Shown here: positions 2,622 to 52,589 of the stretch, piece by piece | Position numbering within the stretch: the first letter of the stretch is position 1 | Layout of the letters: the number at the start of each line of letters is the position of its first letter | Source of the DNA: the human T2T-CHM13v2.0 reference genome, Homo sapiens | Direction: 5' to 3' (one strand) | Assembly: GCF_009914755.1 (NCBI RefSeq) | Contig: NC_060936.1 | Length of the DNA stretch: 64,000 bases | Position numbers and translations under genes: made by a program | The notes under the pieces: model-generated | What the model saw: the letters and a program-made list of their open reading frames with translations, nothing else | Databases searched by the model: none | Told to the model about the DNA's origin: nothing

Positions 2622-2691
2622 GAGCTGTGACTTGAACAATGCTATTCTGCATGAAATTGAGAAATTGCCAGTGTTCCCAACCTGATGGAGA
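2622..2691 (+). other. Candidate 70-nt cassette exon (non-coding or poison)
   Basis: Acceptor aatgacctttgtttcAG (2620-2621), donor AGA|GTATGT (2692). The phase-0 frame reads GAG CTG TGA. Confidence 0.35.
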
Positions 2692-3877
2692 GTATGTGTG
2701 GGATCTTAGTTCTGCTTCATTAAGCTCCTTGTGAATGAGTGGTAAATTTTCCCTATTTATATATTTTCTGTCAGGGGATCATAAACATAGCCTGCCTACC
2801 ACATGTTTTTACTGTTACCTTTTTATGTATATATTGGTTGCACGTTTAACAAGAGTTTATTCCTATATTGAATATCCTAGTCAGGTAGGTTTTAGGAATA
2901 GGCAAAGTTATACACTTGCTACTTTCTTACAATATTGCATATTAAATATAGAGTGATTAAAACTTCTAATTTTTCAGTGAATGAAAATAAGCTTATATTT
3001 AATTAGTTCAAACTTTCTAGTGCATAATTTTTAACATGCTGGAAATGAGGCTTAATAGAGAAGCATTTCCTGAACGAAACTTCCTTTTTGTGTTCAACTT
3101 ATAAACTGAGTCTGGAAAGAAATATTGTTTCCAGATGAATTCACTTGGATTTTATTATGAGAAAATCTTAGGAGCAAATTCCTGTACCAATCTTCTAAGA
3201 GCCTTCTTGAAGGCAGGAGTATGGAGAAATAACTGGCTTAGTCTCCTTCCAATTGTGTCAATATATTTTTGAAATATTCAAATGTGTCTTAGAAGTTGTG
3301 ACGTATTTTGCAAACAATATGTTACTAATAAATGTATAAAAGTACTCAATGTTCACAAACCATATATACGTAGATGTAAATATAGGAGGAGGAGGAGAGA
3401 GTAGTCCTCTAATCCCCAGTGTTACTCAGTTCCGCTATACTTTCTTGAGTGGAAAAGGGTAGAGTTATGTCTTGCTGTAAAATGCACATATAACTCTAGA
3501 TGAATAAGTTCATGGGAAATGTGTCTGTCATGAGTAGAACACTTTCATGTTGCTCGTCTAAGGGACAGCAAAGTGGATAGCAAAAGTTCATTGGAGTTTC
3601 AAATTGTTCCATCTGATCCCTACATATACAAGGGGTCTTTTCTACTGCTGTGGCTGTCCTCAGACACAGCTTTAGCTTTTCCTCTGCACTGAGTGATGTT
3701 CCCTAGAGTTTCCCTGTGTAAAAAGTGCAGCAGTTTCCCTGGGCCTTGGGCTTTAGAGAGACTTGAGTCATTTGACAAGTACTGCAGGGACTCCACGTGA
3801 TTCTACCAACCAAACAAATGACAAGCACAAAAGCAACAGCATAAAACAACCATTGTGCTGCATGAGTATTACTTTCC

Positions 3878-4164: not shown

Positions 4165-7100
4165 ACAGTGTTGCTTTCCTAGAGAGAGTAACAGACAAGG
4201 CTCCCAACAACCACACCTCCATGCGTTATTCCCTAGGGATAGCTTACTCCTCCAGTGTGTCTTTGATATTCATATATATTAACCAGATTTACCCAAATAC
4301 AAATATTAAAATTTTGGGATCAAGATTGATATGATTCTTCCCTTATTTCTTTATGTTTAGAAATCCCATATCACCTTTAGACCCAATTGAAATGGTATCT
4401 ACTTTATGATGTCCTCTCAGAGCCCTAAATAGAATAAATGGATTCACCTCCAAAAATCCATAATATTGTTTGAAACTCTCTTATTGAACTTTCAGCAGAT
4501 GCTTTATATTTTAATTGAGTGCATGCCTGTCTTTCTCCTCTAGAACAAAACCCACTTCTCATATTTGCTTCACTCTCTCACCCAACCCCCCATGCCCCTA
4601 GAATAATGCTTGCACATAGTAGGTGTTCAGGAAAATGTGACTCATGTTCACATTTATAATTAACCTCACATTGTGCTCCCAAGGGTTAGACTTTGATAAT
4701 AGCTCTGATTACATTCGCTCTGATATGACTATGCGATATCTATCTCTTCTGCCAACCAGTAGTTCAGCTTGCTTTCTAAACTTGATTTTCAGATCTTTTC
4801 AAGATTAAACACAAGAAAATTAACTTACATTTTAAAGGGTCCTTGAGGAAAATATCCACTTCATATATGATTTTTGTATTTTGCAGAATTGCTTAATATA
4901 GTGCTTTTACAAAATAGATATGCAGTGTTTGTGGAACGAAATTGTTAAGACAGGAATACCTATAAAACTCAGATGGAGTCATTCAAGTGCTGAGCATGCA
5001 TTTCTTATGTATATTTCTCATAGAAAGTTAATGTGCCAGGAAGCCTTCATTAAGTTTTCATTATGCTTTAACTCTAAAAAGGTATTGACATGGTTTAAAA
5101 GTCATTGATCATTAGTCACAAGATGCTGCTAATCTCTCTACCTGAGTAAAACAAATGAAGCTATCCAGGTAAAAAATTGCTCACCAGTTAGTCATTCCTT
5201 CAGAAGAGTTCCTAGACTATGTTTAAGGATATACAGACATATCTTTAGGAAGACCTAGGAAGTGTCTCCTGCCTGGATTCTGAAATCTTTTCTAGCCAAC
5301 CTCTGAGAAAAAGGCAGAGAACATTGATTAATGTCAGATTTTGGCAAATCAAGTTTAAAAAATGTGAATTTTAGATGAGGGGGAGACTCCTTTGCTATAG
5401 AGAGAATATATTATAAAAAATTGATGAACACAATTATGTATCAGTAATTCTGTGATTTTTTTTTTCAGAAAATGGTCTTATAAAAAACACAAGAATTATG
5501 ATAATTCAACAGTGATATTAGCAAGAACAATTGGCCAGATGTAAAAGGATTTGAGATGTGTAAAAGGAATTGTGGTCTGTCCACTGTCAAACTCTTGGTG
5601 CATCTTGGCTTCCTCAAGGATCAGAAGGAGGGATGGAATATCTGACCCCTGAGATTGCTTCTGTCCATGATAGGCACAGCCTTGTCACCCTGATGCCAGA
5701 TATGTATTCTTAAAGAATATCAAACTATAGCATTCTCTTTCTCAGAAATCTTCAGTAGCTTCCAACTATCTACAAAATCACCAAATCAGTTGTGATTAGC
5801 AAGTATTTTAAGACTGCAAAGCTGTGATCAAACCCACCTTTCTCTCAAGCCATATTTCCCTGTGCTCTGAAATGTACAAATGCCAAACTGGACAAACGGC
5901 TGATTTGTAACTTTCTTTTGAAGTTGGCCCATTCCAAGGTTTCTGCTGGAAACATTTTCTCCACTTCAGGGATGCCTACCCAGCCCCAAAGCTTTTCCTG
6001 ACTTCCTCAACTATACTTTCTTTAAATCTGTAGTACTCCTAATTTATATGTCTTGGAATTAGTTCTTCATACTCTGGATTAGAATTATTCAGATTTTGAG
6101 GATTTCATCCTCAGGTTATGATCTTCTTGGAAAAAGAGAAGGAACCCTAAGACTCTTTTTTCCCTCTACAGTATCTAGTAGAATGTCTTATTCATTGGGG
6201 ATATAAAATAATATAATCTTTAAATAAACAAATGAGAACTCACACCATCCTCATAGGGCACAGTGCACAGTGCTTTACAGATGTAAAGCACCATAAAATA
6301 GAATACTATAGGGTGATCACCACATCTATATTTAGCATGTAACTCTTGCTGATTCACATAGAAAGGTGCCCTGTGATACATTTAAGTCTAAAACAGAAAT
6401 TGTAGGTTACTCACACCCACTTTGTTTGTAAGTACATTTTTGTTTTCCATTCCTGTTGAATTTATTATCAGAAAACAACTGGAACTTAGATACGGCCTCT
6501 GATAAAATGGAGGACAATACACATTCCCTTCAGTAGTTAAAGGTCTAGTCTCAATGAGATATGGATTAGCCATTTCCATCTAACAGAAGGCTCCAATCTG
6601 GCCAAACATATGGGTGATTCTGGGAGCCAGCTTACCCCCACAGGAGGTACAACAGCTCTGGGGCACACAGGATGACCAGAGCTCTCATGGCTTCCATCGT
6701 GAGTCTATTGCGAAGGTTGGATTTGCATTTCCAAGCACGCCAGGAGAATAGAATTCAGTTACCTCCAGAAGTGGCTGCTTTGTCCTCCACACTCTATAAC
6801 ACCAGCCATGTTCAACCAGAATAGTCAAGCAATCATATGCCAGCCTAGTCCTGAACGAACACAGGGGCAAAACACATTCCACAGATGATAAAACTGGCTC
6901 TCTTCAGAAATCCAGCTGAATGCCAAGAGAATTAGCCCAGTTCTAGCTTCCTACTGTACTAGCTTTCAGGAAAAAAAAAAATAGAATACAGCTCTTATAT
7001 ATTGATCAATTCTATAAAATGGAAGAGTTCAAGTTCAAGTGAACAGAATAGCCATCTGTCCTGCTAATCATTTCCATTCTGATGCCATTCACTGGAGTCA

Positions 7101-17882: not shown

Positions 17883-20476
17883 ATTATCTAGATAGTTAAT
17901 AATAGCCATGCTCTTGAGTCTATAAGGAAAATTGTAGAAAAATGAGGACCAGGTATCATATTTCTCTTTTTTCTGGAGATTATGGTCTCAGCTCTATCTT
18001 TTCCTAATAAAATCTGAAATTTGCAGCCTGTAAAATTGTAGGGTAAAATAAATCACCGGATGTTTAACAAAATATTACCTTAGAATTGTCTTAATGGTTC
18101 AGTAGTTAGAATCAATATATGACTATTGCTTTCATGGCATTAATTATGTTTATCTAGAGCACTTGATTGCTAGGCTATAAGTGATGTGGAGAAACACATT
18201 CTTTGCAGCTTTAAATGGTATTGTAGAAAATTCTCATAAGAACATTCACGTACTCAAAGTGACTTTTATTTCTTGATTATAAATAGCAAAGTATTTTGGC
18301 CCTGTGTTCTCCTGGATCTAAACCACTCTGAAAGAGCAAGTCAATGGCATAATATTAGCGCTCAAATTTTGTTTATTTCTTTTATACATAATTTCATGAA
18401 AACCATAATTCCTTTTGTATGCATGTAGTATTTGAGATGTGTTAGAAATGTTCAATGCCTGGATGATATCTTGAACACAATATTTACAGATCCCTTTCTA
18501 CTTATCTCCTTTGCTGTCCTCCCCTTTGTTTTCTTCTTTTGACCTCCGGGAGTAAATGTTGTCTGTACCATTTTTTGGCACTTGCTACTTGGTATTTTAA
18601 GCTATAGTTCCACATGTAAAGAATTTCAGCTCCTTGAGGATATTGTGTCTCCAACATCCAAAAATCCTCCTTAGCACCCAGCAAACCTCCATTCATACCA
18701 CACTTGTGCACACACACATACACACACAGGGAGCATATCCCAATGCCATTTGTTGACTGACAGCCTTTGAGATCCCAAAGTACTCTGAAGTTAGTCTTTT
18801 AGTATCCCTGTAAGTACATGATTATGATTTTGAAAACTTTGTATATAAAGAAAGAAACAAGGTGTTGAAATAAAAATTACCTCCCTGATTTGTTTCTCTT
18901 TGTTAGGTTGACTTTACATGTGTAATAATAGTTGTTCCTGCAAAATTGACTGACACTACTCATTTCCATGCTATGTATGCATTGCTAAAGAAACAGCATA
19001 ACAAACTAGGGGTAGAATCACAATTAGAGATTAAAAATAGGAGGTTTGTATCTCATTTTTATTGTAAATTGTTAAATGAGACTTAAAATTAACTAGTGTT
19101 TAAATGCCATTCTTTACAAAAGCTGAATTAGGTGACCACTCAAAACTGAAACAGATGACCTTTTTGTTTGATACTGCTTCACCCACTTAGCCCTCATCTA
19201 ATGTTTGTTTTTGCCAGACAGAAAGGCCTATAGAGCCTCCCCTTCCCAATGCTCCTACCCGAGGAACACCTGAAACCTTTGGTCTACTCTAAGAGCTTTG
19301 TTTGTTGTATTTATGAAAAGCTCCTCTTATCCAGGTGTTTCACTCTTTCAGAAAGGTGACACATTGTTGACAGCTCTGATAGTGAAAGGAAATTGACAAG
19401 CCTGAGCACCTAACGTCCTCAAACCACCTGATAATGATGGTGGTTCCCATGCCTGCCTGGCGGCCTCGATCTCCAATTAAGCATCTGTGGAAGCTGGAAA
19501 GCAGTCCTCTTAATTGGGAAGCTGCAGATGCAAGGCAGGTTACAATTTCTGCCAAGACATTTATCAGTCAAGCCAAGCTTCCTCCCCTCTTCCTCACGCT
19601 TGCATTTGTGTTTTGTTATTCTGCAGTCCCCCACACTGTAAGACAAGGAGGCTATTTAGTGAAGATCTGAATATACAAAAGTCATTTTGCATGAGCAACT
19701 TTCAGCTCCATAAATAACCTCCCGCTGAAGCAGGATCCATGATGAATTTAGTCCTAATTACACCTAACTCTCACCCTTCCTCTACACCTCCCATTAAGAT
19801 ATATTGTCTAGGACACATGCAGGGGATCTGTTTGCAGCTATCTTTTACATAGGACTGATTGTTTAATTGCAGATTAAAGATTAATGCAAGTATAATGATT
19901 CCATAAGGACACTTCAGACAAAAGCATCCTACATCAGGCTGCCTGCCTCCATTTTTCAATTTGACCATAAATTTGGCTGGGAATTAAATAGTAAGTAGCC
20001 GTGATTGCAACTCTGGTCTCTGAAGGCACTCACGGGAATGAAAATAAATGAACAGGCTCTCACACAAAGCATGTTTCATTATGGTCATTAGTGGGCAGAT
20101 TCTCAGCAGTATTGAAGGTGAAATTGTCTAGAAAAGAGGTTGGCACATGTCTGTTAAGGACAGCCGAAAAGGATGGTGAAAAGGATGGATGTGGTTTGGG
20201 TTGGGGACAATTGTGGCATAGTTTGAGTATTTTAATTCCTTTTGTTTATTTCCATTGTTTAGAAGGTAGCAGCCATCAGCAAAAGGTTCTTTTTACTACA
20301 GAACCACAAAAACATAAGCCTTTTTTAGTATGGTTTCAAAACTGGCATGATGTACAATATGAATATAAATATAAATGATGGTTATTTGGTGAACAGACCA
20401 ACTCCGCACAAAACAGCCAAATAAAAATATCCTAGAATAAACATGACATTATGAAAAGCCCACAGGCGCCTTTACC

Positions 20477-20539
20477 ATGCATGTGGTAATGATTTTGATT
20501 ATGAAATGCTTATCTTTGGATTTTTCTTGCATTTTTCAG
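20477..20539 (+). CDS. PDZRN4: Candidate alternative N-terminal coding segment MHVVMILIMKCLSLDFSCIFQ, splicing in phase 0 to exon 49132
   Basis: accATG at 20477 (A at -3), 21 open codons, strong donor CAG|GTAAGA at 20539/20540, phase matches the 49132 acceptor. A possible weak upstream acceptor cccacAG lies at 20464-20465. Confidence 0.45.
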
Positions 20540-20545
20540 GTAAGA
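20521..20545 (+). promoter_or_regulatory. Recursive-splice-site-like junction (3'ss immediately followed by 5'ss)
   Basis: tttttcttgcatttttCAG|GTAAGA: pyrimidine tract and CAG directly abut a near-consensus donor. Confidence 0.55.
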
Positions 20546-20776
20546 GACAATTTTTCCTTAAACCTTTGGCATTGTTGACATGTTGGCCATCCACTGTAAG
20601 TATGGCATTAAATTTATTTCATCATATTATTCTCTTGCTTATCAGTGAGCGAATTAATCTACATGATATAGATAAGAGGACAAATGTGGCTGCTTTGGTC
20701 TTTGTGACCACTGGTTCTGTGTCCCCCAATAATATATTTTATCTCATAGGTACCTTAAATGTTATTACACTAATAA

Positions 20777-21090
<314 letters not shown>

Positions 21091-23899
21091 TGTAAAATTA
21101 AATATACTTACATATATACATTAGTTTGAGTTATGCTGGTATTTGAGAAGCTGGTTTTCATTTGTTACAAAAAAATAAAAGAGCAGAGACTATTCCTATT
21201 ATAATATGTAAAATGTTCAAAAACATTTTCACCTGTTGTCAATTTAAATGAAGCCAAGACACAAACTAAAATCTGACAAGACACAAACTTTTCCTCCCAT
21301 TCTCTACAGTTTTATAAAAGTCCTTTTATATGGAGGAACAAATACAACTGTGATGACAACATGACCTAATAATGATATTTAGAAAGAAAATCCTAAGATG
21401 TTTTATAATCATAATGAGTTTGGGCCCTTCACATACACACACCACATACACACAACACAACACACACTGTTCCTGATATCCAGGGAGTTCTCCTAGGAAA
21501 AATTGATGAAGCTATGCTAATGTTTGATAAACTCTGTTAAAACCATATTACTTCAGAAACACACATAAAATGACAAAGCTTCAGCATTTGTAGAGATGTT
21601 CCAAATCAAAATTCTAAGGGAAAATAATAGTGTTTTTAGTTTTTCATGAGTTGAGAAAATAAAGACCAAAGCAATCTTTTTCTCCCTTCCCAAAATAAAT
21701 TCAAGTAGTTGTGAAAAAAAGTAAGTTTTTTTTCTTGTTAATGAAATCCATCCAAATACTCAATATCACAATTGACAGGAAGAGTCCAGGATTAGGAATA
21801 ATGACTTTTACCAATGACATATTAATGAGATACAGTAGGGGACAGATAAAAGAATGTAATCATATCCTGACTTGGATGTGGGTATCTGTTTTTTATTGAT
21901 AGAAAGAAAAGCTGACATCCTCTTGAGATTGGAATAGTATTGATTTGTCAGAAAACGAAAGTAGATGACACAGTATTTTTTCTTTTTTCTACAGTCCAAT
22001 AGATCAGTGAATATAGTTATGATAGTATTATGATACTATGTATCCATTCACTTTTACTTGGTTCCATTATTACTTCAAAATTCTTCTATGGCTGAGAGAA
22101 TGATTGAATAACTCCTCATGTGCATGGGATTATTTTATGAAAGAGGTTAACCAGCTGCTCACTATTTTCACTGAAGAGTGAGCAAGAAGAAATCGTTTAA
22201 ATTGAAGTAGCAGTTCTCTAAGTTGCATGGGAATCGTAATCACTGCCATCATCATCAGTTCAAAGGAACTCCATACACATGAGTTCCTGCTGTGCACAGA
22301 GAAAAGAGCTTCCTCTCTGGAAAGATGGTTAGATGCAAGAAAGACTTCACAAGAGAAATTCCAGAATACCCATGTGTATAGATCTCTTTATAGAAACATG
22401 TGGACATGTCTCTTTGTTCAAGATATCAATAACAAATTTGCACTAAAGAATATGAGAGCCCAGAAAATGTAAGAAATGTGGGATTTAATTAATGTATGCA
22501 CATATTAAAATACTTTTTATCCTTAAAACCACTCATTTGATCCACCTGACTGTTTCATCTACTCTGAATAGCTATTATATTAAATGTGAATGAACATCAT
22601 TGGTCCATAACTTTATAAAACTAAATCAAATGAATTAATGTAATTTTCATGAAACAAGATGGTTCATGTCTTGTAAAGAGATGTAATTCTTTGCATATTT
22701 TAAGTCTGTATAATGCTCATGAAATATTGGTGTAGAATTCTTCCTCTCTAAATTAGCTATTATAATTAAAAGTTCATGGGCATGATTTGGAAATATTAGC
22801 AATTTCTTCTCTCATGCACGATAATCATCTTCTTTCACCTGCCACCTGTTGAGAGAGCAGCTGGCCTGTTTATTGTCTCTGTGGCCTGGAGTCCTTTCTA
22901 AGTGAAGCTAGCTTGTCACCTCATTCTAGTTTTGATCACAATACATGCAAATCTCACATTAGTTCATTGCTCAGTCACCAAGTGGCTGGAATATTATGCA
23001 TAGTCAAGTTGATATTTGAAATAAAATGTATTCCCACCTCTTTGTTCTATATCTATTTATTATATTACGAATATAGATGTTCAATGGAGTAAGAGATCTT
23101 TCTGAGGTTTTGATCTTTTAGAGACTGATTCTGGGTTGGACATCAAAACATAACTTGCTTTGAGGATATAAAGCTAACAGTAGTGGGTTTTATTTCATAT
23201 CCCAAATGCCTGGTGGGACAGTTTCTACAATGTATTTACTTCTACATGAATGAAGCTTGAAGGAATATAATAAACGAAAACATATAAACAAATCAACATT
23301 GCTATTAATTTTTTCCCAATATCAGGCTTAGTTACCAAATGCAGATTTTCATATAAATATTTTATAATTTCTTACCTTCTCTTCTCCTGGAAGATTTTTT
23401 TTCAGATTGTCAACAGAAAGCAAGATAGGGGAGTAGGAATAGAAAGAGACATTCTATTCAACTCAAATGTGAGTCTAGGTGAATATGCTGATACTCTATA
23501 GAATTAAGAATAAATACGATTTCAGCAGGTGATACAGAATATAATTTCAAAACATGACTAAATCAAAATTATTTTGTTTGATAAACTAAAACACTACATG
23601 TCAGATAAATTAAGTATAAAAGCCAAAACAAAGCCTTAAATTACAGGGTTTTTTTTTTTTCTAATAGGCTATATTTTAGACATCTTCATTTTCCCCCCTC
23701 TGTATAAATGAATTAAGCTGCACATGAGGAAAGTGTGGTGTAAGGATTTCTCCAAATGCATGAACCCCAAACTATATCTATCTCACCATTTCCCATAATG
23801 CCTCATATTTCTCCTGTAGCGGTTGCTGCCTGTGAGCCATGTCATGATCTATCCATTTGTACCAACCTATCAGTGATAGGAACCTATCACCCATCATAA

Positions 23900-48627: not shown

Positions 48628-49131
48628 AGGATTTAGGATAAAATGCACATGGGCAATAACATGGTCTTGGATTAAAACATTATGAATATGGAGGAAATTT
48701 GACAATATCTTAAAAAATTAAATTTTAGGCAAGTAAGACCTTGATTAAATATTGAAAATCTCACCGAGAGATTGATAGATCATGAAAAAGTAGGATATAC
48801 TTAACATTTCTAACTATCTGAAGACTTCGGTGACCCTTTTCTGAAGCAGATGTGTTACTTAAATTTTTAAATCTTTGCTAATAGTTCTGCTGTTTTACTA
48901 GTTAACCAACTCCAGATACTTTATAAAGATACAGAAGTAATTGTTGTTGTAATCTCAGGTACTTCATCATGTTGGTAAAGACTTCAGTAAATATTAATAT
49001 CTGATTAAATATTCCATTACAAAATTCATATCAGGGCTGGTTGAAACCTTTCTCTCTGTCTTTTATTAATCTATCATGACAGCCTCTCTGATCTTTCCTC
49101 TGAGATGAACAATGTCCTTATATGTTTGTAG

Positions 49132-49388
49132 GTCAATGGGAAGGATCTTTCAAAGGCCACTCATGAAGAGGCAGTGGAAGCTTTTCGCAATGCCAAGGAG
49201 CCCATTGTGGTGCAGGTGTTAAGGCGAACACCTCTTAGTAGACCAGCCTATGGGATGGCTTCAGAAGTGCAGCTTATGAATGCCAGCACTCAGACGGACA
49301 TCACCTTCGAACACATCATGGCTCTGGCCAAGCTTCGTCCACCTACCCCTCCAGTGCCAGACATCTGTCCATTCCTGCTCTCAGACAG
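49132..49388 (+). CDS. PDZRN4: Internal coding exon, 257 nt, phase 0 to phase 2: C-terminal half of a PDZ domain plus linker
   Basis: Acceptor tatgtttgtAG (49130-49131), donor AG|GTattt (49389-49390). Open frame [85 protein letters not shown](S). VNG...THEEAV is the classic PDZ betaD/alphaB signature. Confidence 0.96.
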
Positions 49389-52486: not shown

Positions 52487-52589
52487 CTGCCATTCTCTAC
52501 ATCCAATGGAGCATGAATTTTATGAGGACAATGAGTATATTTCCAGCTTGCCTGCTGATGCAGACAGAACAGAAGACTTTGAATATGAG
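52487..52589 (+). CDS. PDZRN4: Internal coding exon, 103 nt, phase 2 to phase 0: acidic inter-PDZ linker
   Basis: Acceptor cattccccatAG (52485-52486), donor GAG|GTaagg (52590-52591). Split codon AG|C=Ser continues the previous exon's frame: (S)CHSLHPMEHEFYEDNEYISSLPADADRTEDFEYE. Confidence 0.95.

What the first reader, a model, noticed from the sequence alone, without database searches (positions are those of the whole stretch)
20521..20602. Candidate recursive splice site with a stop-containing RS-exon in the giant PDZRN4 intron
Seen: tttttcttgcatttttCAG|GTAAGA (junction 20539/20540), a strong 3'ss whose use regenerates a near-consensus 5'ss. A second donor ACT|GTAAGTA at 20595/20596 defines a 56-nt exon (20540-20595). 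Read in phase 0 (the phase of this intron), that exon is VRDNFSLNLWHC* with TGA at 20576-20578, and its length also shifts frame. Established: vertebrate recursive splice sites occur in very long introns with this architecture; the RS-exon is defined by a downstream donor, normally removed using the reconstituted donor, and triggers NMD when included. Inference: PDZRN4 removes this intron in steps, and the RS-exon could filter transcripts according to the upstream exon used. I do not recall PDZRN4 among the described RS genes but cannot check that. This is the only AG|GTAAG junction with a good pyrimidine tract that I spotted in the window.
Basis: partly seen in the sequence, partly recalled or inferred. 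Interest (0 to 1): 0.8.

Follow-up and report, generated by a model that had tools for sequence, protein, structure and literature searches.

The report
Annotated PDZRN4 exon with recursive-splice architecture
A deep-intronic splice acceptor in human PDZRN4 that is immediately followed by a donor motif is real and already annotated as the start of a rare exon, and it has every sequence feature of a recursive splice site, but whether the intron is actually removed in two steps remains untested.

Summary
The sequence is as described. A pyrimidine tract ends in CAG|GTAAGA at 20539/20540, a second donor ACT|GTAAGT lies at 20595/20596, the exon is 56 nt, and TGA is in phase 0, the true phase of the intron.

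It is the best such composite among 212 AGGT sites in the window. It is also the only one with a nearby donor among 866 AGGT sites in 80% of the 311,740-nt intron.

Table S1 of Zhang et al. 2018 (hg19, UCSC Known Genes) lists a PDZRN4 intron running from a 120-nt non-canonical exon (window 2622-2741) to an end that maps to 20539. That study's pipeline discarded AGGT sites at annotated splice sites, so it never tested this one.

Both canonical upstream exons end in phase 0, with GAG or CAG. Joined to 20540 they rebuild a donor at least as good as the natural one, and better than the exon's own donor. The 120-nt exon ends in GTG and rebuilds the weakest donor. This fits the published recursive-exon switch.

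Junction reads from canonical exons, saw-tooth coverage, lariats and cross-species conservation could not be tested here. I put recursive use at about 0.5. Interest is modest.

The parts
20498..20514 (+). Branch-point-like motifs upstream of the acceptor: TTGAT with its A at 20498, and CTTAT with its A at 20512.
   Evidence: the branch A residues lie 41 and 27 nt from the last intron base, and there is no AG for 74 nt upstream. These are consensus matches only; branch use was not shown.
20521..20539 (+). Pyrimidine tract and CAG acceptor. This is the 3' splice site, and the last intron base is 20539.
   Evidence: 15 of 20 pyrimidines at -23..-4. It is annotated as an intron end in UCSC Known Genes hg19: hg19 41871666 in Table S1 of PMC6110456, mapped to the window.
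20540..20547 (+). The donor half GTAAGAGA. After joining to an upstream exon it rebuilds a 5' splice site, the recursive 5' splice site.
   Evidence: GAG|GTAAGA, CAG|GTAAGA and GTG|GTAAGA, depending on the upstream exon.
20540..20595 (+). The 56-nt exon, the candidate recursive exon. The 3' end assumes the GTAAGT donor is used.
   Evidence: The start is annotated. The 3' end is inferred from sequence only; I saw no annotation row for it.
20576..20578 (+). TGA stop codon in phase 0.
   Evidence: It lies 17 nt before the exon end and 274 nt before the next junction downstream (49388/52487), so it is eligible for nonsense-mediated decay under the 50-55-nt rule (established knowledge).
20596..20603 (+). 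Downstream donor ACT|GTAAGTAT, which would define the exon.
   Evidence: Besides the site itself, it is the only donor-like site matching at least 5 of 6 positions within 300 nt downstream.
2622..2741 (+). The 120-nt non-canonical exon whose donor is joined to 20540 in the annotated transcript.
   Evidence: hg19 introns 41831815-41853752 and 41853872-41871666; ctttgtttcag|G ... GAGTG|gtaaat, exactly 120 nt; stops in all three frames.
49132..49388 (+). The canonical downstream exon. Its acceptor at 49131/49132 would be the target of the second splicing step.
   Evidence: Hub annotation; reads VNGKDLSK... from its first base; 100% identity to PDZRN4 proteins.

Best explanation
The junction at 20539/20540 is a genuine splice acceptor. 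It heads a short non-productive exon of PDZRN4, 56 nt long if the GTAAGT donor at 20596 is used. I judge that it most likely behaves as a vertebrate recursive exon of the kind described by Sibley et al.

Proposed mechanism:
1. The exon is defined across its strong acceptor and its own donor.
2. It is spliced to whichever exon lies upstream.
3. After either canonical upstream exon, the junction rebuilds a donor (GAG|GTAAGA or CAG|GTAAGA). The long-isoform exon ends ...GAG and the short-isoform first exon ends ...CAG.
4. That rebuilt donor equals or exceeds the natural donor and beats the exon's own donor. It is therefore used next, and the 56 nt plus the remaining 28.6 kb are removed without trace.
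5. After the non-canonical 120-nt exon (ending ...GTG) the rebuilt donor is weakest, so the exon can stay in.
6. When it is included after a canonical exon, its phase-0 TGA and its 56-nt length make the mRNA a target for nonsense-mediated decay.

Shown here: the sequence, the phase, the annotated use of the acceptor after the 120-nt exon, and the relative match of the donors.

Inferred: that canonical transcripts use the acceptor at all, that re-splicing follows, that the 20596 donor is used, and that decay follows inclusion.
For: Sequence:
- The composite acceptor-donor, the second donor, the 56-nt length and the TGA in phase 0 are all present.
- Branch-point-like motifs lie upstream, with a 74-nt stretch free of AG.

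Rarity:
- It is 1 of 212 AGGT sites in the window with both features.
- I scanned 866 AGGT sites in 248,740 of the 311,740 intron bases. Only 2 meet YAG|GTAAG with at least 14/20 pyrimidines, and only this one has a GTRAGT donor 25-200 nt downstream.
- The shuffle expectation is 0.027 per 64 kb.

Use of the acceptor:
- Table S1 of Zhang et al. 2018 lists UCSC Known Genes introns 41831815-41853752 and 41853872-41871666 for PDZRN4 (column header confirmed).
- The 120-nt exon between them is window 2622-2741, with AG and GT borders.
- The hg19-to-window offsets run 41851131, then 41851130/1, then 41851127, then 41851126.
- The only AG in the bracket 20535-20540 is at 20538-20539.

Donor competition (consensus matches and U1 duplex energy, a crude proxy):
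- Rebuilt donor after the long-isoform exon: 7/9 and -9.6. It is identical at -3..+6 to that exon's natural donor.
- After the short-isoform first exon: 8/9 and -11.0.
- After the 120-nt exon: 6/9 and -8.0.
- The exon's own donor: 7/9 and -7.3.

Pattern of annotation:
- No S1 row has an intron from either canonical exon ending at 41871666. Such introns would contain listed putative sites and so would have been listed.
- The exon therefore appears in the annotation only after the non-canonical exon, which is what the switch model predicts.

Model from the literature (passages read):
- Recursive exons are kept in low-abundance isoforms, through competition between the two donors (PMC6110456).
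- Efficient recursive splicing needs a rebuilt donor that beats the downstream one (PMC6224609).
- Recursive exons carry premature stops (PMC5126111).
[quoted passage not shown] Annotation therefore does not argue against recursion.

The region is single-copy in the genome.
Against: - There is no direct evidence of a splicing intermediate from a canonical exon. No junction reads, saw-tooth or lariats could be examined.
- Conservation is unknown. No vertebrate DNA other than this genome is reachable, and three indirect attempts gave nothing.
- Recursive splicing with a saw-tooth pattern is rare. In mouse cortex nuclear RNA there were 19 sites among 84 candidates, under 0.06% of 28,382 long introns. 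Pdzrn4 is not in that paper's text. Its candidate list is a PDF figure that I could not see.
- PDZRN4 is not among Zhang's 342 candidate or 16 saw-tooth sites. PDZRN4 occurs only in file 1 of the 6 supplementary files. However, the site had been excluded beforehand.
- The site lies 91% of the way into the long intron, so it does little to shorten that intron.
- By consensus count, the rebuilt donor after the long-isoform exon only ties with the exon's own donor (7/9 each).
- The ranking rests on a crude U1-pairing proxy, not MaxEntScan.
- The evidence of use is a single annotated intron, mapped across assemblies by assuming a net 4-nt indel over 17.8 kb.
- The 3' end of the annotated exon was not seen.
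Confidence: 0.5

Rival explanations
1. This is an ordinary rare alternative or cryptic exon of transcripts from the internal promoter. It is included now and then together with the 120-nt exon, as splicing noise or as a regulated poison or 5'-leader exon. Canonical transcripts ignore it. The GTAAG at its start is coincidence, and any recursive use is negligible.
For: - The only evidence of use is one annotated intron, from another non-canonical exon.
- RefSeq lists only two PDZRN4 transcripts (hub annotation; only one was shown to me), and the shown one lacks this exon.
- The motif alone is only mildly rarer than chance.
- True saw-tooth recursive sites are very rare.
- Thousands of annotated exons begin with a donor-like motif without being recursively removed: 6,416 putative recursive exons, most of them constitutive (PMC6224609).
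- The mouse study describes recursive-like cryptic exons that show an exon-like pattern rather than a saw-tooth.
Against: - If inclusion were independent of the upstream exon, joins from the far commoner canonical exons to 20540 should outnumber the double-cryptic form. Yet none is annotated.
- The rebuilt donor after canonical exons is as good as the natural donor. Any use of the acceptor from those exons would therefore be expected to re-splice.
- In the mouse recursive-like cryptic exons the rebuilt donor is weaker than the downstream donor. Here it is the other way round by the proxy used.
Confidence: 0.35
2. The annotated exon that starts at 20540 is a terminal or composite exon ending at an intronic polyadenylation site. 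It would then be the last exon of a truncated non-coding transcript, and the 20596 donor would not be used.
For: - ATTAAA lies at 20607-20612, 12 nt after the donor, and further hexamers lie at 20780, 21097 and 21174.
- I saw no annotation row for an intron starting at the 20596 donor.
Against: - Such a row would be absent from Table S1 anyway, because no putative site lies between 20596 and 49131. Its absence therefore says nothing.
- A perfect GTAAGT donor just upstream of a polyadenylation hexamer usually suppresses that hexamer, by U1 telescripting (established knowledge, not tested here).
- AT-rich sequence yields such hexamers by chance.
Confidence: 0.08
3. This is a chance motif that is never used. 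My mapping of the hg19 intron end onto 20539 would then be wrong.
For: - The mapping assumes small net indels between assemblies: 4 nt over 17.8 kb.
- Chance composites of this strength are expected about once per 250 kb without the second donor.
Against: - The offsets are bracketed on both sides and run monotonically.
- The only AG within the bracket is the one at 20538-20539.
- There is no other AG for 74 nt upstream.
Confidence: 0.05

Closest known systems
Vertebrate recursive splice sites with cryptic recursive exons (Sibley et al. 2015, Nature 521:371; CADM2, ANK3 and others). The paper is not held. The model is taken from passages in PMC6110456, PMC6224609 and PMC5126111, and the gene names are recalled.
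   Same: - YAG|GTAAG with a strong pyrimidine tract, deep in a very long intron of a gene expressed in brain.
- A short exon defined by a second donor.
- An in-frame premature stop.
- A rebuilt donor at least as strong as the exon's own donor.
- The exon appears in the annotation only after a non-canonical upstream exon.
   Different: - No junction reads from canonical exons, no saw-tooth, no lariats and no conservation have been shown.
[quoted passage not shown]
- It serves two nested introns belonging to two promoters.
Annotated recursive exons repressed by the exon junction complex (Blazquez et al. 2018, PMC6224609).
   Same: An annotated exon that starts with a donor-like motif and could be skipped by re-splicing after the first junction forms.
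   Different: - Those exons are mostly constitutive coding exons kept in by the complex.
- This one is a rare non-productive exon.
- PDZRN4 is not in the 3 supplementary files held for that paper.
Recursive-like cryptic exons in mouse brain (PMC8797253).
   Same: A cryptic exon in a long intron (50 kb or more) that starts at AGGT, with possible junctions on both sides.
   Different: In those exons the rebuilt donor scores lower than the downstream donor, and coverage looks exon-like. Here the rebuilt donor is the stronger by the proxy used.
Poison (NMD-coupled) cassette exons.
   Same: A short exon with an in-frame stop and a length that shifts the frame, annotated in a minor transcript.
   Different: - Poison exons need no donor motif at their 5' end.
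- PDZRN4 is not in the one supplementary file held for the conserved cryptic poison exon survey (PMC11632617).

Membership tests
Vertebrate recursive splice site with recursive exon | Acceptor fused to donor (YAG|GT), with a strong pyrimidine tract and a branch point. | tested here: met
   15/20 pyrimidines, CAG|GTAAGA, CTTAT 27 nt upstream, and no AG for 74 nt. No MaxEntScan score was available.
Vertebrate recursive splice site with recursive exon | Located deep in a long intron. | tested here: met
   In the 311,740-nt intron the site is 283,148 nt in. In the 68,676-nt intron of the short isoform it is 40,084 nt in.
Vertebrate recursive splice site with recursive exon | A downstream donor that defines a short recursive exon. 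| tested here: inconclusive
   A perfect GTAAGT lies 56 nt downstream. Its use was not seen in any source.
Vertebrate recursive splice site with recursive exon | The rebuilt donor outcompetes the exon's own donor after canonical exons. | tested here: inconclusive
   U1 duplex energies are -9.6 and -11.0 against -7.3, and consensus matches are 7/9 and 8/9 against 7/9. The direction is as expected, but the proxy is crude and one comparison ties.
Vertebrate recursive splice site with recursive exon | Premature stop in the exon, in the phase of the intron. | tested here: met
   phase 0, and TGA at 20576-20578.
Vertebrate recursive splice site with recursive exon | The exon is retained in minor isoforms that follow non-canonical exons or promoters. 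| tested here: met
   an annotated intron runs from the 120-nt exon to 20539. No annotated direct join from a canonical exon exists. This rests on one annotation row.
Vertebrate recursive splice site with recursive exon | Junction reads from the canonical upstream exon to the site (the splicing intermediate). | not testable with these tools
   No read data were available. The site was excluded beforehand from the one human screen whose tables I could read.
Vertebrate recursive splice site with recursive exon | Saw-tooth intronic coverage and lariats of both segments. | not testable with these tools
   No read data were available. The coordinate is not among the lariat-supported sites in Zhang's supplement.
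Vertebrate recursive splice site with recursive exon | Evolutionary conservation of the AGGT and the exon's donor. | not testable with these tools
   No other vertebrate genome is reachable. Searches gave only self matches or nothing.
Annotated alternative (poison) exon | The splice junction is present in a gene annotation. | tested here: met
   UCSC Known Genes hg19 intron end 41871666, via Table S1 of PMC6110456, mapped to 20539. RefSeq lists two PDZRN4 transcripts; the hub table showed only NM_001164595.2, which lacks this exon, and I could not check the other.
Annotated alternative (poison) exon | Inclusion introduces a premature stop in the main reading frame. | tested here: met

The most novel reading that the evidence does not exclude
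PDZRN4 carries a true recursive splice site of the saw-tooth class, shared by two nested introns. Both the RING-containing long isoform and the short isoform from the internal promoter would splice first to 20540 and then re-splice. The exon would be kept, and the message destroyed, only when a cryptic upstream exon such as the 120-nt one has been spliced in. That would be a quality-control switch serving two promoters at once, and one more entry on the short list of about 10-20 confirmed human sites.
Probability: 0.2. Interest if true: 0.45.

Novelty: new member of a known kind. Interest (0 to 1): 0.35.

Why it matters
Only about ten to twenty recursive splice sites are confirmed by saw-tooth coverage in human or mouse brain. 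Each confirmed site helps define what separates real sites from the thousands of AGGT look-alikes.

This candidate is instructive for two reasons. First, a standard screening filter removed it because it overlaps an annotated splice site, so similar sites may have been missed systematically. Second, it sits in two nested introns used by two promoters.

If the reading is wrong, it is simply a rare non-productive exon of PDZRN4 and of little consequence.

Tried and rejected
1. I first thought the 56-nt exon might be a coding exon of the 778-aa short isoform. An ATG at 2735-2737 in the 120-nt exon opens a frame that runs through the exon (offset 2) into the PDZRN4 frame. This was rejected. Of 20 proteins fetched, 16 of about 775-779 aa, from frogs to mammals, begin with MGCNLC...SQ directly before VNGKDL. 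That exon lies at window -19613..-19545. No database representative of 192 aa or more shares words with the exon's frame-2 translation. This is weak evidence, because isoforms are hidden inside 90% clusters.

2. Cross-species conservation by indirect routes led nowhere. A search of the whole genome with 20380-20760 found only the locus itself. It is therefore neither a repeat nor a detectable paralogous element in PDZRN3 or PDZK4. The 109-codon stop-to-stop frame at 20455-20784 found only the window's own 92-aa entry.

3. Literature:
- 'recursive splicing' with PDZRN4 gave 0 papers.
- 'recursive' with PDZRN4 gave 10 papers, of which 8 were listed and none concerned splicing.
- PDZRN4 with cryptic exon, poison exon or NMD gave nothing with PDZRN4 among the 15 papers listed.
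- The hg19 coordinates used as search terms gave 5 unrelated papers.
- Two LNX-family reviews (passages only) mention three PDZRN4 isoforms and nothing on this exon.
- Sibley et al. 2015 is not held.
- The supplements of the 2026 large-scale preprint and of the 2025 disease-locus preprint were not tried, because bioRxiv supplements are closed.

It was not scanned, apart from the 2 kb around the short-isoform first exon.

6. Rfam finds no RNA family in 18500-22500.

7. MaxEntScan and SpliceAI are not available. I used consensus counts and U1 duplex energy instead.

Full report
**1. Observation**

The window reads tttttcttgcatttttCAG|GTAAGAGA, with the junction at 20539/20540, and ACT|GTAAGTAT, with the junction at 20595/20596. 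The 56-nt exon read from its first base gives VRDNFSLNLWHC*, with TGA at 20576-20578. Only the frame at offset 2 is open.

The exon at 49132-49388 reads as PDZRN4 protein from its first base (100% identity to database PDZRN4). Both canonical upstream exons end on a codon boundary.

Of the six AGGTAAG on the + strand, only this one has a good pyrimidine tract: 15 of 20 at -23..-4, against 7-11 for the others. The one at 52588 is the real donor of exon 52487-52589.

Upstream of the acceptor lie two branch-point-like motifs, with their A residues at 20512 and 20498, and a 74-nt stretch without AG.

**2. Is it more than chance?**

In 300 dinucleotide-preserving shuffles of the window, YAG|GTAAG with at least 14/20 pyrimidines occurs 0.25 times on average, and 23% of shuffles have at least one. 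With a GTRAGT donor 25-200 nt downstream, the mean is 0.027, and 2.7% of shuffles have at least one.

I scanned 248,740 of the 311,740 bases of the intron. The 63 kb just upstream of the window could not be fetched. Among 866 AGGT sites, two meet the strict composite, and only this one has the second donor.

The motif is therefore the best recursive-type site I could find in the intron. Sequence alone would not be convincing in a genome-wide scan.

**3.

Table S1 of Zhang et al. 2018 (PMC6110456; hg19, UCSC Known Genes of 2013) has 19 PDZRN4 rows, all seen. The column header is confirmed. Its annotated introns include:
- 41587990-41900257, the long-isoform intron
- 41831815-41900257, the short-isoform intron
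- 41831815-41853752
- 41853872-41871666

The 120-nt exon between the last two is window 2622-2741, with cag|G and GTG|gtaaat borders. That gives an hg19-minus-window offset of 41851131. The putative site 41856211 is the AGGT at window 5080-5083. The exon at 49132 gives an offset of 41851126.

The intron end 41871666 therefore falls within window 20535-20540. The only AG there is at 20538-20539. So a catalogued transcript splices the 120-nt exon to 20540.

Zhang's pipeline removed AGGT sites that overlap annotated splice sites. It lost one of the nine known human recursive sites for the same reason (passages). That explains why this site is absent from their putative list and was never tested.

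The coordinate appears nowhere else in their six supplementary files. File 1 was cut when stored, but the chr12 rows lie in the part that is held.

**4. The transcripts around it**

The own-genome search located the first exon of the short isoform at window -19613..-19545, ending TCC CAG|gtgagt. It encodes the MGCNLC... N-terminus found in 16 of the 20 proteins I fetched, from frogs to mammals.

The upstream exon of the long isoform ends ATG GAG|gtaagacaat at window -262609.

The site thus lies in two nested introns:
- 283,148 nt into the 311,740-nt intron (91%)
- 40,084 nt into the 68,676-nt intron (58%)

The 120-nt exon has stops in all three frames, so the annotated transcript that uses it is non-productive from the normal start. 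An ATG at 2735-2737 opens a frame that passes through the 56-nt exon into the PDZRN4 frame. I found no database protein with that N-terminus. This is weak evidence, because isoforms are hidden inside 90% clusters.

**5. Mechanism**

Joining to 20540 rebuilds a different donor for each upstream exon (consensus matches and U1 duplex energy):

| Donor | Sequence | Consensus matches | U1 duplex energy |
|---|---|---|---|
| Rebuilt after the long-isoform exon | GAG\|GTAAGA | 7/9 | -9.6 |
| Rebuilt after the short-isoform first exon | CAG\|GTAAGA | 8/9 | -11.0 |
| Rebuilt after the 120-nt exon | GTG\|GTAAGA | 6/9 | -8.0 |
| The exon's own donor | ACT\|GTAAGT | 7/9 | -7.3 |

The donor rebuilt after the long-isoform exon is identical at -3..+6 to that exon's natural donor.

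In the published model, a cryptic recursive exon is erased when the rebuilt donor beats the downstream donor, and is kept in rare isoforms when it does not (PMC6224609; PMC6110456). Such exons carry premature stops (PMC5126111).

The annotation pattern fits this. The exon is catalogued only after the non-canonical exon. No intron from either canonical exon to 41871666 is listed, although such an intron would contain listed putative sites and so would have been listed.

If inclusion did not depend on the upstream exon, direct joins from the far commoner canonical exons should be the form that gets catalogued. This is a modest argument for re-splicing, and it rests on a single annotation row.

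**6. What argues for caution**

- There is no read-level evidence, no lariats and no conservation data.
- The U1 energy is a crude proxy, and one consensus comparison ties.
- Saw-tooth recursive splicing is rare: 19 sites among 84 candidates in mouse cortex nuclear RNA, under 0.06% of 28,382 long introns (PMC8797253, passages). Pdzrn4 is not named in that text, and the candidate list is a PDF figure I could not see.
- Low-level use is common, however. Zhang et al. report junction reads for 60% of their putative sites in a very large ENCODE read set.
- The 3' end of the annotated exon was not seen. An ATTAAA lies 12 nt after the donor, so a terminal exon cannot be excluded.

**7. Comparison and novelty**

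The closest known kind is the vertebrate recursive site with a cryptic recursive exon.
- Features met: motif, long intron, premature stop in phase, and inclusion after a non-canonical exon.
- Features inconclusive: use of the downstream donor, and donor competition.
- Features not testable here: the three defining experimental ones (splicing intermediate, saw-tooth and lariats, conservation).

I therefore do not file it as a confirmed member. It works like one on paper.

As a splice acceptor it is already annotated. As a recursive site it is not described in anything I could search. Sibley's supplement and several preprint supplements remain unseen.

**8. Verdict**

| Reading | Probability |
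|---|---|
| Recursive use at a detectable level | about 0.5 |
| A saw-tooth-class site | about 0.2 |
| An ordinary rare exon with negligible recursion | about 0.35 |
| A terminal exon | about 0.08 |
| Unused, because of a mapping error | about 0.05 |

Interest is 0.35.

Noticed in passing
window 2622-2741: A 120-nt exon (ctttgtttcag|G ... GAGTG|gtaaat) is annotated in UCSC Known Genes hg19 but is absent from the one RefSeq transcript listed for me; RefSeq's second PDZRN4 transcript was not shown. It has stops in all three frames. An ATG at 2735-2737, directly preceded by an in-frame TGA, opens a frame that runs through the 56-nt exon into the PDZRN4 frame. No database protein with that start was found.
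   Followed up: partly
window 5080-5083: This AGGT (aaaaAG|GTATTG) is listed by Zhang et al. 2018 as a putative recursive site (hg19 41856211, 3' splice-site score 6.10, PhastCons 1). The tract before it is purine-rich by eye, so the high conservation may reflect something other than splicing.
   Followed up: no
L012:5392-5405 (G000:C12:41153392-41153405) compared with window 20540-20553: The natural donor of the long-isoform exon (GAG|GTAAGACAAT) and the candidate site (CAG|GTAAGAGACAAT) share GTAAGA..CAAT apart from a 2-nt insertion. This is possibly chance.
   Followed up: no
L018:9215-9241 (G000:C12:41202234, window -213766): This is the only other strict composite (TAG|GTAAGA with 14/20 pyrimidines) in the 80% of the intron that I scanned. 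It has no GTRAGT donor within 25-200 nt downstream.
   Followed up: no
window 20607-20612: An ATTAAA hexamer lies 12 nt after the GTAAGT donor of the 56-nt exon, followed by U-rich sequence. It is a possible intronic polyadenylation signal that would normally be held down by U1 binding at the donor.
   Followed up: no
L011:888-956 (window -19613..-19545): This first exon of the short PDZRN4 isoform encodes a 23-residue N-terminus beginning MGCNLC. It is identical or nearly so in 16 of the 20 proteins fetched, from frogs to mammals. Gly2 followed by Cys3 looks like a lipidation motif; that reading is recalled, not tested.
   Followed up: partly
window -19545 to 2621, and the whole intron: There are length differences between this assembly and hg19. 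The long intron is 311,740 nt here against 312,267 nt in hg19. The stretch from the short-isoform first exon to the 120-nt exon is about 229 nt longer here. The causes of these differences were not located.
   Followed up: no
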